Sequence record: OM362897.1
Source: Escherichia phage SKA64
DNA length: 64,000 nucleotides
Reading direction: 5' to 3' (one strand)
Shown here: positions 6,961-64,000 of the stretch, in pieces
Layout of the letters: each line of letters begins with the position of its first letter
Position numbering within the stretch: the first letter of the stretch is position 1
Made by a program: the position numbers and the translations under genes
Notes under the pieces: generated by a model
Seen by the model: only the letters and a program-made list of their open reading frames with translations
Database searches by the model: none
Told to the model about the DNA's origin: nothing

Positions 6961-7284
6961 ATGAGATTTACAAGACAAGAGGTAGTTGTGCTGGACGAAG
7001 CAATGACAATGATCGTCTTTTACTATGAAGATATCTTCTGTGCAGCATATCATTTAAATGACATTCAGATTGAATGGCAGCAGATAGCATTCCTGTTGGA
7101 CAAGAGTAATCATTTGGATGGCTTTGAGTATTTGGAGTGGGATGGTGCAAAGGAAGTTAAAATTGTAGGGTTAAATCACGATCAGATTGTTGACATGCAA
7201 TGTAAGTTGTGTCATTATCAGTTCTCAAACAAAGTCAAACTCGAAAGGCAATTGGAGGTGGTTAAAGATGATAGCACTAATTAG
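6961..7284 (+). CDS. hypothetical protein (first gene of the plus-strand block)
   Basis: 107-aa ORF with RBS-like aggaggct upstream. Confidence 0.4.
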   Translation: MRFTRQEVVVLDEAMTMIVFYYEDIFCAAYHLNDIQIEWQQIAFLLDKSNHLDGFEYLEWDGAKEVKIVGLNHDQIVDMQCKLCHYQFSNKVKLERQLEVVKDDSTN

Positions 7285-59461: not shown

Positions 59462-59830
59462 TTATTCAATGCAAGCATTATTTGCATCTTCAATTCTGTC
59501 TTTCACCCATTGAAGACGTAACGTGTTGGTATGACACGCCAAGTTTATACACTCTGAAAGGTAATCCATGCAATCTGCATTGAACGGAAGATTGTAGTCC
59601 AGCCCTGCACATGTAAATTGTTTCCTCATTTCATATTTCAAGCGGTCCAACAAACTATCCCGCCATCTTCTATCTTCTTCTCTAGTTGTCTCACCAACAA
59701 AATCATTTACATAATCTACCAGACAACCACATAAGCCACTCGTTGTGCGATTCATTGCAGGATAGTTGGCAATCCATGCTTTATAGAAGCGAAGCAATGT
59801 TGCACTGCTCAACGGAATACTATTTGTCAT
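59462..59830 (-). CDS. hypothetical protein, paralog family A member
   Basis: FYKAWIANY...SGLCGCL...AGLDYNLPFN...RLQWVKDRI. Confidence 0.4.
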   Translation of the reverse strand: MTNSIPLSSATLLRFYKAWIANYPAMNRTTSGLCGCLVDYVNDFVGETTREEDRRWRDSLLDRLKYEMRKQFTCAGLDYNLPFNADCMDYLSECINLACHTNTLRLQWVKDRIEDANNACIE

Positions 59831-60164
59831 TTTTCTCTCCTTCGTAATCTTGAATTCTATCTAGCACCCATTGTATACGATGTTTGTTTTTATGGCAAAT
59901 ATGTTTTTTATGTTCGAAGGTGTATTCTTCATAACCACCTTCATTAAACGGGAAATTGTAATCCAATCCTGCACCAATAAACTGTGATTTCATCTCCTGT
60001 TGTAGACGAGGTAACAGTTCATCAGGATATGTTCCCTCTACATACTTAATCAAACATATACACAAGCCACTCGTTGTGTGACCTTCTACCTCACCAGCAA
60101 GCCAAGCTTTGTAAAACTTCATTAGACGTAAACTACTCAACGGAACATTTTTACTCTCTTGCAT
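59820..60164 (-). CDS. hypothetical protein, paralog family A member
   Basis: FYKAWLAGE...SGLCICL...AGLDYNFPFN...RIQWVLDRI. Tandem with 59462-59830. Confidence 0.4.
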   Translation of the reverse strand: MQESKNVPLSSLRLMKFYKAWLAGEVEGHTTSGLCICLIKYVEGTYPDELLPRLQQEMKSQFIGAGLDYNFPFNEGGYEEYTFEHKKHICHKNKHRIQWVLDRIQDYEGEKNDK

Positions 60165-61727
60165 GATAATCTCCTCTCATCGTTAGCCATCTTTCATGGC
60201 AATCATCAATCACCAACATCATACGATCAATCTTAGGGAATTACAATCGAATTATCATAGGGGATTCCTATCAATTATCCCATATATACCGATTATTTTT
60301 GACACCCCACTCTTGTATAAAAAGTAACCCAAAATATCTACGGGGAGAGATTATTTCGGGACACCCTGTTTCATGGCAATCATGGCAAGAATATCTAATA
60401 GAATCAATATCATATGGCAAAAATCATGGCGCATACGTAAGAAGTGCTTAACGCGAATTTTCGGGCCGTCAGGTCCACGCAGCGACAATTCCCAAATATC
60501 ATGAGAATGAGAATAATTATCATTCGTATTCAATGACTTATGCAAGGCTTATGCCAACGTAGCGACAAGGTGGGCCACTTGATTATAAATCACACAAACA
60601 CTTATTTATCAATGGTTTGGCAACCTCATCATATGACGGAACAATGTCAACTGATCCCGCTCATGACAAGCAGACTATTATTTATATGAGAATGATTATT
60701 ATTTAAACGTTTATTAGCATAAAAACTAAAATAAATCAAGAATTTTCTGATTTTATTTACGTTTAAGAGAAGATGCTCAACATATCGCTACGCGATAGTA
60801 TTCGCCCCCGAAAGATTAGCCTTTATTTTCTTGTATGTTTATACGCTATGTGCACACTATGCAACCTGTCGCTATTCGCTCATGTTGCTACGTGCTAATA
60901 CTTCACCGTGCTAATGATCTTTGAGCGATAGCGATTATTTCATCTTGTAATTACCACAATGATTATTGTTATTGCGCTAATGTTATGATCTTGGTAATTA
61001 CATATAATGCTAATAATAAGCCAGCGCAATAAGTGTAAGCGTATTACGCTTGCAATTATTGCAAGCTACGCAGTAACAAGAAATAACCATCACCGATGGT
61101 TATGATTGTTGGGGTGTAGTTGGCTTATTATTAGCTCGCTATGTGTCCGGCATAGCGTGCTAATGATGACTCTGTGAATGATTCGTTTTGTAATGATTTC
61201 ATTTAGTCACTATTATGGCAATAGTTATTATTTTAATGGTTTCGTTTGTTATTGTTCGTTAGTTGGTTGTTTTGTCGTGTTATCGTTATCTTGCTTAGTA
61301 TTCATCATGGTTTGATTGTTTGTTGTTATCAATCATCTTGCTATTATTCCTTTGATTATGATTAGTTTGCTTATTGTTTTATGTTGTTTGTTGGTTAGTT
61401 GTTGCGAACTATTATCAACATTATAGTTATGCACTTATATTGCATAGATAAACATGGATAGATGATAATGGTTATCATTGCACTAGAAAGGAGGTAAAAG
61501 GGTGTTTTTGATGGTTTGTTGTTGGTTGTTGATCGATTTTAACCGCTTTAAATGGCTCTCTAACAGCCTGTTACCCTGGGAGGTATGGTTATTCATTTAA
61601 TGGTTGATTAGCTCGATACCGCGATCTATTCAGTTTTGTTCTGTGTCGGTTTTTCATAGGCGGAATCTATCAACATTATTCAGGCAAAAAGAAAGGGCGC
61701 TTAGTGCGCCCCTTGTTTTGTTGTCAA
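60165..61727. repeat. about 1.5-kb non-coding region with short repeats, palindromes and a GT-skewed tract
   Basis: No ORF of 60 aa or more except one doubtful 64-aa ORF. Repeats TTTCATGGCAATCAT (x2), GTGCTAATGAT (x2), GCGATAG-like motifs; palindromes at 61037-61064; GT-rich 61200-61440. Confidence 0.5.
61693..61714 (-). terminator. hairpin terminator candidate downstream of 61728-62147
   Basis: GGGCGC-TTAGT-GCGCCC flanked by A/T runs. Same sequence recurs at 62260-62276. Confidence 0.45.
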
Positions 61728-62147
61728 TTATAACGCTTCATAGATTGAGTAGATCCGGTTCGCCAGGTCATTACGAAAGCGGAATTTTTCATCACGTTTA
61801 ATCATCAGATCCTTAAAACCGCATTCTTTCAAGGCTTCATTAACTTTACTGCGGCATACTTTCATATTGTCCTGCGCGTCACCAATAAACTTATTGCTAT
61901 GATGCATTGCTTTGATCTCTTCCTCTAATACCAGGGCAACTACACGGACCGGATCAAGCTGATATGCGGTAACATCCATGCGGCATTGTAAACGGCTTTT
62001 AACATCGTTTACCGGATATACTGCAACCTCTTCCCCGTCAACGTTCACGATAACCAATTTACCATCGATTTCGAAGCCTTTGGCGGCGCTACCGTGACAA
62101 AAAGCGTTATCGAAGGAGTAAGCTGGATTATTTGATTTAATGTTCAT
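61728..62147 (-). CDS. hypothetical protein (GC-richer module)
   Basis: 139-aa ORF. Visibly higher G+C than the rest of the window. Confidence 0.4.
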   Translation of the reverse strand: MNIKSNNPAYSFDNAFCHGSAAKGFEIDGKLVIVNVDGEEVAVYPVNDVKSRLQCRMDVTAYQLDPVRVVALVLEEEIKAMHHSNKFIGDAQDNMKVCRSKVNEALKECGFKDLMIKRDEKFRFRNDLANRIYSIYEAL

Positions 62148-62257
62148 GATGTTGTCCTTTGTTTCGTTTCGTTGTTTGCTGCCAGTGAGTTAAATATAAT
62201 ATAACGCCGATCCCCTGTCAATAGGGGATAGCGCATTATTTACATTTCTTTACGTTA

Positions 62258-62279
62258 AAGGGCGCTTAGTGCGCCCCTT
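62258..62279 (-). terminator. hairpin terminator candidate downstream of 62288-62655
   Basis: Second copy of GGGCGC-TTAGT-GCGCCC, directly after the gene's stop. Confidence 0.45.
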
Positions 62280-62287
62280 GTATAATC

Positions 62288-62655
62288 TTACTTTGTGCGG
62301 TTGTGAACGTTATCGCGTTCAACCATCAAGGCAAGGCGGATCAGTTGATCAGTTGTATCGCGTAAATTGTCGGGCCATGTTTTACTGTTCCAGCTATCCA
62401 TGTTTGATTGTATATAGGTTTCAATGGCTTGATCCATATTATCAAACAAGTTTTCCTCCAGGCTCTCGGCTGTTTCACACTGGAAAGCATTAGCGACACT
62501 ATTAATCAATAAGCAAGCCAGTAAATCAGCATTACGCCAATTTTTACGGATAGTTTCATCTTCCAGATAAGCTACCAAATTAATATTTGCGCCAGTGGTT
62601 GACGTTGCGATCACTTCTTGCGCTTTTTCAACTGCTTTAATTGCCGATTTGCTCA
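62288..62655 (-). CDS. hypothetical protein (GC-richer module)
   Basis: Start chosen at ATG 62655 (MSKSAIKAV...) with upstream aagaggaaaag RBS-like. The track ORF extends to 62734 through the promoter-like region. Confidence 0.4.
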
Positions 62656-63538
62656 TCTTCTTTTCCTCTTTGTGGGCTTGCTGTATTGCTCGCCCTACGT
62701 GATAAATAATAATAGAAAGGTGATCCGGTGTCAATAGGTAGAATTGTAAAGATTCGATAGTTTATCTCTTTGATGTTTTGTTGTTTGATAGGTGTTAGCT
62801 ATCAATATATAGCGGGGTCGTCCGGTGATTACCTCCCCCGTTGCCAGTGCCGCCCGTTGAATAAGCATAACAAAAAACAGGACAAAAGCAAGCCCTGTTT
62901 TTGTAAAGATTAGATGATTTGCATATCCTCCACGATAATTTCTAATTTCCAAACAAGATGATCTAAGCTCCCTGATAAAAATGATTCCGATACATAACCG
63001 CCATCGGACACCGTAGCAAGGATCTCGCCATTTGCTTGCTCTTTGATTTGAACATCCAGGCGGTTAGCCTTTGCTTTGTTCAGGACGGCGATCAGGCGGT
63101 TAGCTGTAGTCATGGTGTTTTCCTTCCAGTTGTGAGCGGCACCATTGCCGCCCTACGTGATACATCTTACACTATCAGATACATTGTGCAAGCTATTTTA
63201 GATCTCGTCACCTATATAATCAGATCTGTTCTTCTCTGTCATACGTTTAAACAATTCTTGCATATGGCTGATAGCTTGCAATGTGTCTTCTTCCAGGCTT
63301 GAATCGAGATAATCAGGATCATTCTTTACCTTGCTATGGTTGTGATACCGCAACGCTGCTAATACCTTTCTAACTTGTTCTGCATTCATTTTTATTACTC
63401 CTTAAAACCAGGTGCCAACCGTTTCCAATAGGTCACTGACTACCAGAACAACATTGATTAGCACATATTTAATCAGGAAGGGGATAAGCGCCAGCGTCGC
63501 TACTATGATCCCCATTGTGATGATTACCTTTCTCATCG

Positions 63539-63823
63539 TTAGCGGTTTACGTAAGCTTTACCGTTTACGGTCATCGGTATGGCTTCAAGGTCTGGATCTT
63601 CCTTAAGGTCGCGTGCAAGCTCACCGCACCGGACACCCTCGAATCCGTGGTATTCTGTTTCCCCGTCCTTAAAAGTTTTAGCGGCAAGGCATAGGCGATA
63701 ATTAACACCGATCCGGTTTACTGCGTTGATATCGGTTAACGTGATCGATTCCGGCAAATCGTTAGCCATGACAGGCGCGTTAATACCAACAACCAGGGCA
63801 ACTACTGCGATCATCTTTTTCAT
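63539..63823 (-). CDS. hypothetical secreted protein with signal peptide
   Basis: MKKMIAVVALVVGINAPVMA N-terminus, 94 aa. Confidence 0.4.
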   Translation of the reverse strand: MKKMIAVVALVVGINAPVMANDLPESITLTDINAVNRIGVNYRLCLAAKTFKDGETEYHGFEGVRCGELARDLKEDPDLEAIPMTVNGKAYVNR

Positions 63824-64000
63824 GTGTCTATCCTCTTCCTATTGCGTTTAATGGGGCGTTATTGATTGATGTTATGATGAAAGTTATTTTCTTCAACGGC
63901 TTTTAAAATAAAGGCTGTTACCGCTTTCGTGTCTACTTGTTCGAACGTATCAGAATAAGCCCAATAATGATCATCCCCTACTTTCGGCGGGTAAACCTGG

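What the first reader, a model, noticed from the sequence alone, without database searches (positions are those of the whole stretch)
61690..64000. GC-richer terminal module with a repeated hairpin and a repeated leader motif
From about 61.7 kb the sequence is visibly more GC-rich than the rest. The hairpin GGGCGC-TTAGT-GCGCCC occurs twice (61695-61711 and 62260-62276), each directly after a minus-strand gene. The 14-mer CGCCCTACGTGATA (minus strand TATCACGTAGGGCG) occurs twice (62691-62704 and 63149-63162), each 36-49 nt upstream of a start codon. This points to a separately acquired or separately regulated module with its own terminator and leader or operator signals.
Basis: seen in the sequence. 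Interest (0 to 1): 0.5.

Follow-up and report, generated by a model that had tools for sequence, protein, structure and literature searches.

The report
Shuffled early-gene cassettes in a coliphage
The two repeated motifs are the shared terminator hairpin and the promoter/leader signal of single-gene cassettes at the end of the early-gene region of a phAPEC8-like E. coli phage, and natural relatives show that genes are gained or lost exactly at these repeats, much as already described for T4-type phages.

Summary
The window is a Phapecoctavirus (phAPEC8-like) genome. Positions 61690-64000 are the promoter-distal end of an ~11 kb array of ~30 small minus-strand ORFans, 0.9-3.5 kb from where a relative's virion DNA ends.

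- **Hairpin.** It is a 25-nt exact repeat, the only direct repeat of at least 25 nt in the window. It flanks one cassette (hairpin, promoter, 420-nt gene). Phages anhysbys and nepoznato lack exactly this 565-bp unit and keep one hairpin.
- **14-mer.** Alone it is compatible with chance. It is the junction between a sigma-70 -10 box and a conserved leader, GTAGGGCGG plus a GC stem-loop. About 20 copies occur per relative genome, all in the early array on the coding strand. The copy at 62691 is a recombinant junction: relatives carry an extra 234-nt gene there.
- **Indel survey.** Of 15 indels among seven relatives, 10-11 have junctions in these elements.
- **Composition.** The GC shift is modest in bulk but clear at third codon positions. 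Two blocks are 75-85% identical to rV5 (43.7% GC), against 65-67% for core genes. There is no bacterial or plasmid source.

This is a PeSL-like regulatory cassette system in another phage group. The RNA-level role of the leader hairpin (probably a 5' stabiliser) is inferred, not shown.

The parts
61682..61716 (-). Terminator hairpin T2. It comprises the 25-nt repeat copy 1 (61692-61716), a 9-bp stem AAGGGGCGC/GCGCCCTTT with a 5-nt loop, and then CTTTTTG. A T-run on the plus strand as well makes it look bidirectional. It is the last signal of the early array before the non-coding terminal region.
   Evidence: Annotated as an ARNold terminator at the homologous place in phAPEC8 and Schickermooser.
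61728..62147 (-). 420-nt ORF (139 aa, phrog_12277, unknown function). It is the cargo of the cassette bounded by the two 25-mers. It is 85.3% nt and about 90% aa identical to rV5 gp159.
62193..62239 (-). Promoter of the 420-nt gene: TTGACA-17-TATATT, 11 of 12 matches. It is embedded in an inverted repeat with 15 paired positions centred on the -35 box (a PeSL-type stem-loop). The stem differs from rV5 and phita32 by compensatory changes.
   Evidence: (-18.7 kcal/mol, z -4.45).
62257..62281 (-). Hairpin T1, the 25-nt repeat copy 2. It has the same stem-loop but is followed by TTTAACG, with no U-tract. It is therefore an attenuator or RNA-end hairpin rather than a strong terminator.
   Evidence: It was not picked up by the terminator scan.
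62288..62656 (-). 369-nt ORF (122 aa, phrog_15368, unknown function).
62668..62734 (-). Promoter (TTGACA 62729-62734, TATTAT 62706-62711) plus a chimeric leader (62668-62705) holding 14-mer copy 1 (62691-62704). The promoter and GTAGGGCG come from the unit that drives a 234-nt gene in relatives. They are fused to the AGCAATACAGCAAGCCC leader of the 369-nt gene.
   Evidence: (31 bits).
62735..62872 (-). 138-nt spacer with no annotated gene in relatives. Its promoter-proximal end repeats the sequence found at the end of the 204-nt gene (TTGTAAAGATT.GAT), so it is probably a relic of an earlier rearrangement.
   Evidence: family D8.
62873..62902 (-). Intrinsic terminator after the 204-nt gene: an 11-pair stem, an 8-nt loop and a T-run.
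   Evidence: Annotated as a terminator in Schickermooser and phAPEC8.
62910..63113 (-). 204-nt ORF (67 aa, phrog_14244). It is absent together with its promoter in PNJ1809-36 and tuntematon.
   Evidence: event B.
63127..63191 (-). Canonical promoter/leader unit. It has TTGCAC (63186-63191), a 16-nt spacer, TAAGAT (63164-63169) and the leader GTATCACGTAGGGCGGCAATGGTGCCGCTCACAACTG (63127-63163), which includes 14-mer copy 2 (63149-63162). The stem is GGGCGGCA/UGCCGCUC with loop AUGG.
   Evidence: (51 bits, best hit).
63198..63823 (-). Three ORFs: 192 nt (63198-63389), 135 nt (63402-63536, hydrophobic) and 285 nt (63539-63823, with an N-terminal signal-like segment). The block is 74.7% identical in nt to rV5 gp164-166.
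60449..60777 (.). Context only. This segment is homologous to the exact 329-bp direct terminal repeat of phage Schickermooser, so it marks the physical ends of the virion DNA in that relative. It lies inside the 1.56-kb non-coding stretch 60165-61727.
   Evidence: Korf et al. 2019, PMC6563267.

Best explanation
The window comes from a phAPEC8-like virulent E. coli myophage (genus Phapecoctavirus). Positions 61690-64000 are the downstream end of its early-gene array.

**Layout.** The array is about 11 kb and holds about 30 small ORFs of unknown function, all on the minus strand. It is bounded by two long non-coding stretches and lies next to the physical end of the virion DNA. It is built from single-gene or few-gene cassettes. 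A typical cassette has:
- an A-rich upstream tract;
- a sigma-70-type promoter;
- a conserved leader, starting 6-8 nt after the -10 box with GTAGGGCGG, that folds into an 8-10 bp GC stem-loop at the very 5' end of the mRNA;
- a purine-rich Shine-Dalgarno sequence;
- a small ORF;
- in places, a GC hairpin that terminates or attenuates transcription.

**Recombination.** Because these elements are repeated many times in direct orientation, they act as short patches of homology. Recombination between them deletes, inserts or swaps cassettes, including exchange with rV5-like phages of higher GC. This explains the composition shift.

**Shown.** Identity of the phage, the architecture, the restriction of the motif to the array, and the junctions in natural variants.

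**Inferred.**
- The promoters are used early by host RNA polymerase.
- T2 terminates transcription and T1 attenuates it.
- The leader stem-loop protects the 5' end of the mRNAs from 5'-end-dependent decay. I put this specific RNA role at about 0.45.
For: **Identity.** The region is 93-96% identical to Phapecoctavirus genomes over 24 kb.

**Architecture.**
- 22 aligned upstream regions give the consensus AAAA..TTGACA-N17-TAAGAT-GTATCAC-GTAGGGCGGCAATGGTGCCGC-TCACAAC-AGAAGAGAGA-ATG.
- Model R1 finds 2 hits in the window, 21 in relative Ro121c4 and 10 in Justusliebigvirus alia. All lie inside the early arrays on the coding strand. There is none of significance in the other ~62 kb of the window and only one weak hit in rV5.
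- The motif occurs in 157 phage records, with up to 12 places per record, always intergenic.

**Stem-loop.**
- Every copy folds at -8 to -21 kcal/mol, except one divergent copy at -5.5.
- At least six different perfect stems exist. The covariation score is 0.229 against 0.112 +/- 0.015 in shuffles (0 of 500) and exceeds all slid controls.
- The stem starts 8-12 nt after the -10 box in 27 of 37 distinct copies.
- rV5 has differently sequenced GC hairpins at the same distance from its promoters.

**Recombination at the hairpin.** A synthetic deletion product matches anhysbys and nepoznato in one piece at 96% identity. The two window alignments overlap by exactly the 25-mer.

**Recombination at the leader.**
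- Relatives carry a 294-nt insertion (a 234-nt gene) whose flanks share TATTTATC.CGTAGGGC, and the window leader is the chimera.
- Three of three indels between Ro121c4 and Schickermooser overlap by 17, 66 and 65 nt of promoter/leader.
- Of 15 unique indels among seven arrays, 8 lie in promoter/leader units and 2-3 in GC hairpins.

**Exchange with rV5-like phages.** Identity is 85% and 75% nt in two blocks against 65-67% in core genes. rV5 is 43.7% GC. Module GC3 is 0.41-0.56 against 0.318 elsewhere.

**Phage-only origin.**
Against: - No transcript data exist. Start sites, termination efficiency and early timing are inferred from consensus matches. The promoter scan finds no more sites in 59-64 kb than in shuffles (18 against 15.6). 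The -35 of the unit at 63186-63191 (TTGCAC) matches only 3 of 6 positions.
- The 5' arm (GGCGG) and the loop (AAUGGU or AAUAGU) are more conserved than a purely structural stabiliser needs. This could mean specific recognition by a factor, or merely recent common descent of the copies.
- Sense and antisense strands fold almost equally well (-14.6 against -13.9 kcal/mol, p = 0.054). An RNA role is therefore not separated from a DNA-level role for the inverted repeat.
- Indel junctions are expected to fall between genes anyway, because only such variants are viable. Four of the 15 lie at stop-codon/Shine-Dalgarno microhomologies, not in the motifs.
- The direction of each event (gain or loss) is not established.
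Confidence: 0.8

Rival explanations
1. The conserved box plus hairpin (GTAGGGCGGCAATGGTGCCG) is itself a phage-specific promoter, recognised by a phage-modified or phage-encoded polymerase. This is how it is annotated in the phAPEC8 GenBank record ('putative promoter determined with PHIRE').
For: It is annotated this way four times in the part of phAPEC8 examined (sequences). It is a strongly conserved 20-mer restricted to one gene block.
Against: - It always lies at a fixed 7-nt distance downstream of a complete TTGACA-N17-TAnnnT promoter, and 20-30 nt upstream of the ATG. That leaves little room for a second promoter plus a leader.
- The stem varies with compensatory changes while hairpin potential is kept.
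- PHIRE only detects repeated words.
- The rV5 paper finds only sigma-70-like and T4-late-like promoters in this phage group (PMC3606486).
Confidence: 0.07
2. The leader box and hairpin are the binding site of a dedicated phage factor. This could be an RNA-binding repressor or nuclease, or a DNA-binding repressor. It would switch the whole early regulon off or on together, in the manner of T4 RegA/RegB or of a nut/N system. Recombination at the repeats would be a by-product.
For: - Sequence conservation of GGCGG and of the loop AAU(G/A)GU exceeds what a stem-loop alone requires. It holds across about 20 copies per genome and two genera.
- The motif is strictly restricted to the early array.
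- Terminators lie between cassettes.
Against: - No candidate factor was identified. All local ORFs are of unknown function.
- No boxA-like sequence occurs in the array.
- Each cassette has its own promoter, so antitermination is not needed.
- rV5 has hairpins of other sequence at the same place. That favours structure and position over a specific sequence.
- The copies may be similar simply through recent duplication and gene conversion.
Confidence: 0.2
3. The region is a foreign island acquired from a bacterium or plasmid (a moron-like insertion), as the first reader suggested might be checked.
For: The GC and GC3 are higher than in the rest of the window.
Against: - There is no match in 5,426 complete E. 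coli genomes.
- One 'plasmid' match (CP057073, 137.5 kb, non-mobilizable, 82% identical) has the size of an rV5-type phage genome.
- All six ORFs fall in phage-only PHROG families.
- The region is syntenic in about 250 related phages.
Confidence: 0.02
4. The repeats are chance matches or trivial low-complexity similarity with no shared function.
For: An exact 14-mer repeat is within chance expectation for 64 kb. Another exact 14-mer pair (61930 and 63792) lies in coding sequence with no evident meaning.
Against: - The 25-mer is unique in length in the window.
- Both hairpin positions are conserved in seven of the eight relatives checked.
- The 14-mer sits in the same register to the -10 box and the ATG in both copies, and belongs to a family of more than 20 members.
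Confidence: 0.01

Closest known systems
PeSLs (promoter-early stem-loops) of T4-type phages RB49/phi1, PST/T4 and nt-1/KVP40 (Arbiol et al. 2010, PMC2839356; Comeau et al. 2014, PMC4122927)
   Same: - Repeated composite elements made of a consensus sigma-70 promoter, an A/T-rich upstream tract and a GC stem-loop.
- Concentrated in a region of small ORFans.
- Indels between close relatives are bounded by the elements.
- Several positions of the stem-loop relative to the promoter occur here too: around the -35 box at 62201-62239, between -35 and -10 in some Ro121c4 units, and downstream of -10 for the main family.
   Different: - A different phage lineage (Stephanstirmvirinae/Vequintavirinae, not Tevenvirinae).
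- No sequence relationship was tested or expected.
- The main stem-loop lies just after the predicted start site, so it would be part of the mRNA. It also carries a conserved box (GTAGGGCGG) and loop.
- Separate hairpins at gene ends are used as junctions as well.
- Promoter and terminator activity and mini-circles were shown experimentally for PeSLs, not here.
Rho-independent (intrinsic) terminators
   Same: T2 (61682-61716) and the hairpin at 62873-62902 have a GC-rich stem followed by a U-run on the coding strand. Both are annotated as terminators in relatives.
   Different: T1 (62257-62281) has the same stem but only three U's followed by AACG. Identical stems thus occur with and without the tract that defines a terminator.
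5'-terminal stem-loop mRNA stabilisers of E. coli, such as the ompA leader hairpin (Emory, Bouvet and Belasco 1992; from my own knowledge, not checked here)
   Same: A stable hairpin predicted to begin within 0-5 nt of the transcript 5' end, in front of an otherwise unstructured leader and Shine-Dalgarno sequence.
   Different: The start site is not mapped and no half-life data exist. The sequence of the 5' arm and loop is conserved, which the ompA-type mechanism does not require.
Lambda-type nut sites (boxA plus boxB hairpin)
   Same: A short hairpin with a conserved loop, placed in the leader just after early promoters, in a region that also holds terminators.
   Different: There is no boxA. 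There are about 20 copies instead of two. Every cassette has its own promoter, and no N-like protein is known.
Integron gene cassettes with attC hairpins
   Same: Single-gene units bounded by imperfect inverted repeats. Presence or absence of exactly one unit occurs between relatives.
   Different: Junction overlaps range from 2 to 70 nt and fall at different places in the elements. This fits general homologous or microhomology recombination, not a fixed crossover point. The cassettes carry their own promoters, and no integrase is linked.

Membership tests
PeSL-type mobile regulatory cassettes | The repeated motif contains a sigma-70 consensus promoter with an A/T-rich tract upstream of -35. 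| tested here: met
   The consensus of 22 units is AAAA...TTGACA-N17-TAAGAT. TTGACA/17/TATTAT and TTGACA/17/TATATT score 11 of 12 in the window. The unit at 63164-63191 is weaker (TTGCAC, 16-nt spacer, TAAGAT).
PeSL-type mobile regulatory cassettes | A stable GC-rich stem-loop is adjacent to or overlaps the promoter. | tested here: met
   Leader hairpins fold at -8 to -21 kcal/mol, except one divergent copy at -5.5. The -35-centred stem-loop at 62201-62239 folds at -18.7 kcal/mol, z -4.45. Covariation exceeds the controls.
PeSL-type mobile regulatory cassettes | The elements are concentrated in a hyperplastic region of small ORFans. | tested here: met
   All model hits lie in the early arrays. 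The ORFs fall in PHROGs of unknown function. Gene content differs between isolates that are 93-97% identical.
PeSL-type mobile regulatory cassettes | Insertions, deletions and replacements between close relatives are bounded by the elements. | tested here: met
   25-mer junction in anhysbys and nepoznato. Leader-box junction at 62691-62708. Overlaps of 17, 66 and 65 nt. 10-11 of 15 unique indels fall in the elements.
PeSL-type mobile regulatory cassettes | Promoter and terminator activity are shown in vivo, and mini-circles are formed by recombination between neighbouring elements. | not testable with these tools
   This needs reporter assays and PCR or sequencing of lysates.
Intrinsic terminator | A GC-rich stem-loop is followed directly by a U-run on the transcribed strand. 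| tested here: met
   T2 (61714-61692 then CTTTTTGCCT) and 62902-62873 pass the scan. T1 at 62257-62281 does not (TTTAACGTAAAG), so for T1 the feature is not met.
5'-terminal stem-loop mRNA stabiliser | The hairpin begins within a few nucleotides of the transcript 5' end. | tested here: inconclusive
   The first paired base is 8-12 nt after the -10 hexamer in 27 of 37 distinct copies. That would be +1 to +5 for a start 7 nt after -10. The start site is only predicted.
5'-terminal stem-loop mRNA stabiliser | Removing the hairpin shortens the mRNA half-life in an RNase E/RppH-dependent way. | not testable with these tools
   Requires an experiment.
Lambda-type nut site | A boxA element (CGCTCTTA-like) lies upstream of the boxB hairpin. 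| tested here: not met
   No CGCTCTT(A/T)A or TGCTCTT(A/T)A occurs in 61690-64000 or in the Ro121c4 array.
Phage-specific promoter (PHIRE annotation in phAPEC8) | The conserved word lies upstream of the transcription start and is not preceded by another complete promoter. | tested here: not met
   In every unit the word starts 7 nt after the -10 box of a sigma-70-type promoter. The actual start sites are unmapped.

The most novel reading that the evidence does not exclude
The GTAGGGCGG box with its stem-loop is not just a promoter-proximal hairpin. It would be the recognition site of a dedicated phage-encoded factor. That factor would be either a regulator that controls the whole early regulon through its roughly 20 identical leaders, or a recombination protein that makes the array an integron-like, actively shuffled cassette platform shared between Phapecoctavirus, Justusliebigvirus and Vequintavirus.
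Probability: 0.12. Interest if true: 0.7.

Novelty: new member of a known kind. Interest (0 to 1): 0.4.

Why it matters
rV5-, phi92- and phAPEC8-like phages are among the most frequently isolated E. coli phages and are candidates for therapy, yet their early genes are almost all of unknown function.

- **Prediction.** Knowing that the early region is a set of self-contained cassettes that recombine at shared promoter/leader and hairpin elements explains why gene content differs between near-identical isolates. It also predicts where new genes (likely host-takeover or anti-defence functions) will appear.
- **Annotation.** It corrects a misleading annotation ('phage-specific promoter') that has been propagated in GenBank, and it flags start codons wrongly placed inside the hairpin.
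- **Generality.** The PeSL principle, so far documented for T4-type phages, would extend to an unrelated group of large myophages. That suggests a general route of modular evolution.
- **Engineering.** The unit (strong promoter, 5' hairpin, Shine-Dalgarno sequence) is a compact expression cassette that could be reused.

Tried and rejected
- **Rfam.** Permissive thresholds on 59500-64000 gave nothing.
- **Protein libraries.** Pfam, NCBIfam and PDB sequence searches of the ORFs gave only sub-threshold noise.
- **Bacterial or plasmid origin.** Rejected.
- **Lambda nut-like reading.** No boxA.
- **Plain MAFFT alignment of the leaders.** It misaligns the 3' arm of stems of different length. I built a covariance model and used its alignment instead. 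Even that alignment leaves some variants out of register, so the pair counts understate pairing. The per-copy folds and the list of distinct stems are the better evidence.
- **RNA or DNA structure.** Comparing sense and antisense folding energies was not decisive (p = 0.054).
- **Literature.** The phAPEC8 genome announcement is not in the library. No paper in the library mentions PeSLs together with rV5, phi92, Vequintavirus or phAPEC8, and searches on Phapecoctavirus promoters found only routine annotation statements.
- **Promoter scan.** Taken alone, it is not enriched over shuffles in this AT-rich region.

Full report
**What the window is.** Megablast of 60800-64000 and of 40000-64000 against phage genomes finds about 245 records. 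The best are Phapecoctavirus (phAPEC8-like, Stephanstirmvirinae) E. coli myophages at 93-97% identity over nearly the whole query. In annotated relatives the region is a run of small minus-strand 'hypothetical protein' genes with ARNold terminators. In phAPEC8 it also carries 'host-dependent promoters (MEME)' directly followed by 'promoters determined with PHIRE'.

**Checking the observation.**
- The hairpin is at both stated places. It extends to an exact 25-mer (61692-61716 and 62257-62281), the only direct repeat of at least 25 nt in the window.
- The 14-mer is exact at both stated places. Exact 14-mers recur 38 times in the window against about 11 in shuffles, so on its own it proves little.
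- Bulk GC of the region is 42.5% against 38.6% +/- 1.5%. That is the top 1.4% of windows, but two other regions equal it.
- GC3 of the ORFs is 0.41-0.56 for the annotated genes against 0.318 +/- 0.066 for 122 other ORFs (p = 7e-5).

**What the 14-mer belongs to.** I took the closest fully collinear relative, Ro121c4YLVW (locus L003), and printed the sequence upstream of every gene of the array.
- About 20 of about 32 genes are preceded by the same unit: A-rich tract, TTGACA, 17 nt, TAAGAT/TAAACT/TAATAT, GTATCAC, GTAGGGCGG, a GC stem-loop, TCACAAC, a purine-rich Shine-Dalgarno sequence and ATG (alignment).
- The 14-mer TATCACGTAGGGCG spans the last bases before the predicted start site and the first bases of the conserved leader.
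- The PHIRE 'promoter' of the phAPEC8 record is exactly GTAGGGCGGCAATGGTGCCG. It is the leader, not a separate promoter.
- A covariance model of the leader finds only 63127-63163 (51 bits) and 62668-62705 (31 bits) in the window. It finds 21 hits in L003 and 10 in Justusliebigvirus alia, all on the coding strand inside the early arrays, and one weak hit in the rV5 genome.
- BLAST with a 57-nt consensus finds 157 phage records with up to 12 places each, always intergenic.

**The stem-loop.**
- Each copy folds into an 8-10 bp hairpin (window copies -14.9 and -11.3 kcal/mol).
- Distinct stems include GGGCGGCA/UGCCGCUC, GGCGGGAA/UUCCCGCU, GGCGGGAAA/UUUCCCGCC and GCGGGGAAA/UUUCCCCGC, among others.
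- On 37 distinct copies the covariation score is 0.229 against 0.112 +/- 0.015 in shuffles (0 of 500), above every slid control.
- The first paired base is usually 8-12 nt after the -10 hexamer, which is about +1 to +5 of the predicted transcript.
- rV5 has hairpins of other sequence at the same distance from its sigma-70 promoters. It also has four copies of a stem-loop that encloses the -35 box (ATGGCC-TTGACTTCA-GGGCCAT).
- Sense and antisense strands fold about equally well (p = 0.054), so RNA and DNA roles are not separated.

**The hairpin repeat.**
- On the minus strand both copies form AAGGGGCGC-ACUAA-GCGCCCUUU. Copy T2 is followed by CUUUUUG, with a T-run on the other strand too, and passes the terminator scan. 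Copy T1 is followed by UUUAACG and does not.
- Between them lie the 420-nt gene and its promoter. The -35 box of that promoter sits in the loop of an inverted repeat with 15 paired positions (-18.7 kcal/mol, z -4.45).
- In rV5, A7_1 and phita32 the same gene has hairpins on both sides and a -35-centred stem with compensatory differences: ATCCCCT/AGGGGAT, ATCCTTG/CAAGGAT and ATCCTT/AAGGAT.
- Both hairpin positions are kept in seven of the eight Phapecoctavirus relatives checked, with one-base loop differences.

**The repeats as cassette boundaries.**
- I built the predicted product of recombination between the two 25-mers (window 61400-61716 joined to 62282-62700). It matches phages anhysbys and nepoznato in a single piece at 96% identity, whereas other relatives match in two pieces 565 nt apart.
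- The anhysbys sequence shows the upstream flank of T1, one hairpin, then the downstream flank of T2. The two alignments to the window overlap by exactly 25 nt.
- For the leader, Schickermooser, phiWec179 and tuntematon carry a 294-nt insertion (a 234-nt gene) relative to the window. The alignments overlap at window 62691-62708, and the window's leader is a chimera: the promoter and GTAGGGCG of one unit joined to the AGCAATACAGCAAGCCC leader of the next.
- Ro121c4 against Schickermooser gives three indels, all with junction overlaps made of promoter/leader sequence (17, 66 and 65 nt).
- A survey of seven arrays gives 15 unique indels of 175-571 nt. Eight have junctions in a promoter/leader unit, two or three in intergenic GC hairpins (overlaps of 16 and 25 nt), and four at stop-codon/Shine-Dalgarno microhomologies.
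- Junctions between genes are expected for viable variants. The informative part is the long overlaps formed by the repeated elements.

**Origin of the composition shift.**
- Against nearly the whole rV5 genome (Vequintavirus, 43.7% GC) only 4.3% of the window aligns.
- Core genes (ribonucleotide reductase, Sir2) align at 65-67%. Positions 61726-62153 align at 85.3% and 63195-63861 at 74.7%.
- The 139-aa protein is about 90% identical in many Vequintavirus genomes.
- In rV5 the gene is likewise the last of the array, next to a 2.6-kb non-coding region ('non-coding' box in PMC3606486).
- The genes between the two shared blocks differ between the two phage groups.
- This fits exchange of cassettes between co-infecting phage groups. 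It does not fit acquisition from a host: there is no hit in E. coli genomes, one phage-like 'plasmid', and the ORFs are PHROG-only.

**Position in the virion DNA.** Korf et al. report a 328-bp terminal repeat for Schickermooser (PMC6563267). The record has an exact 329-bp repeat at both ends, and it maps to window 60449-60777. In that relative the early array therefore ends 0.9 kb from the right physical end of the DNA and is transcribed towards it.

**Comparison with what is known.** The architecture and the behaviour match PeSLs of T4-type phages: sigma-70 promoter, A/T-rich tract, GC stem-loop in one of several positions, enrichment among ORFans, and recombination between copies causing indels (PMC2839356; PMC4122927).
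- The differences are the phage lineage, a stem-loop that lies just inside the transcript and carries a conserved box and loop, and the additional use of gene-end hairpins as junctions.
- No paper in the searched library links PeSLs to rV5-, phi92- or phAPEC8-like phages. The library is incomplete, so this is not proof of absence.
- I file this as a new member of a known kind.

**Most likely mechanism.**
- Host RNA polymerase starts at each cassette promoter as soon as the DNA enters (inferred).
- The transcript begins with a stable hairpin that limits 5'-end-dependent decay (inferred, about 0.45; established principle for ompA-type leaders, from my own knowledge).
- T2 and the hairpin at 62873-62902 terminate transcription, while T1 lets part of it through (inferred from the U-tracts).
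- The many direct copies of these elements serve as homology for the recombination that creates, deletes and exchanges cassettes (shown by natural variants; the enzymes are unknown).
- A dedicated factor that recognises the conserved box and loop remains possible (about 0.2 for a regulator; 0.12 for the stronger 'dedicated system' reading).

Noticed in passing
window 60165-61727: This 1.56-kb stretch has no credible ORF (36% GC) and separates the early array from the next minus-strand genes. Its part 60449-60777 is homologous to the exact 329-bp direct terminal repeat of phage Schickermooser. Several related GenBank records start or end here, so it probably holds the physical genome ends and packaging signals. 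rV5 has a 2.6-kb 'non-coding' box at the same place.
   Followed up: partly
window 60892-61165 (+): Four of the six window-wide matches to GYGCTAATR cluster here, against 1.4 expected in the whole window. They lie just beside the terminal-repeat homologue. They may be iterons or terminase or origin signals.
   Followed up: partly
L003 13401-14631 (NC_052654 134400-135630); L016 10769-12299: A second long non-coding stretch bounds the early array on its upstream side in Ro121c4, alia, tuntematon and anhysbys. It carries annotated repeat_regions and a lone opposite-strand ORF. It shares only 20-29-nt repeats with the downstream non-coding stretch.
   Followed up: partly
window 62735-62872: This 138-nt spacer between a terminator and the next promoter has no annotated gene in any relative. 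Its end repeats the 3' end of the 204-nt gene (TTGTAAAGATT.GAT, 85% over 20 nt). It is probably a relic of an earlier cassette rearrangement. A 46-aa ATG ORF without a Shine-Dalgarno sequence overlaps it.
   Followed up: no
L003 7228-7542 (JR319_gp131); L004 1228-1368 (rV5 gp168): The annotated start codons fall on the ATG inside the leader hairpin loop (GGCAATGGTGCC, GGTGGAATG). The true starts are almost certainly downstream, so this is a systematic misannotation caused by the motif.
   Followed up: no
L004 (rV5) around 2777-2870, 6200-6277, 6522-6612 and 7162-7243: rV5 carries four near-identical promoter elements in which the -35 box lies in the loop of a stem (TTTTTAGATGGCC-TTGACTTCA-GGGCCATC...TAAAGT). 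This is the commonest PeSL configuration. rV5 also shares several ORFs with the T4-type phage RB49, according to its annotation.
   Followed up: no
plasmid record CP057073.1, 6980-9310: This record is a 137.5-kb 'non-mobilizable E. coli plasmid' from cattle faeces. It matches the module at 82% identity and has the size of an rV5-type genome. It is probably a phage genome deposited as a plasmid.
   Followed up: no
hit lists: Records named Campylobacter, Pseudomonas, Acinetobacter, Klebsiella, Shigella and Serratia phages are 90-97% identical to these coliphages. The host labels of at least some of them look doubtful.
   Followed up: no
window 40000-64000 (relatives' annotation): Relatives annotate a serine recombinase/DNA invertase, a Sir2-like deacetylase, a DNA methyltransferase and a DNA ligase in this part of the genome. 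I did not examine whether the recombinase has any link to cassette shuffling.
   Followed up: no
L001 2222-2239 versus 2533-2550, and events A and D: Two independent insertions (361 and 571 nt) sit at the same TAAGGG stop-codon/Shine-Dalgarno junction in different phages. This suggests a second type of recurrent insertion point, between translationally coupled genes.
   Followed up: partly
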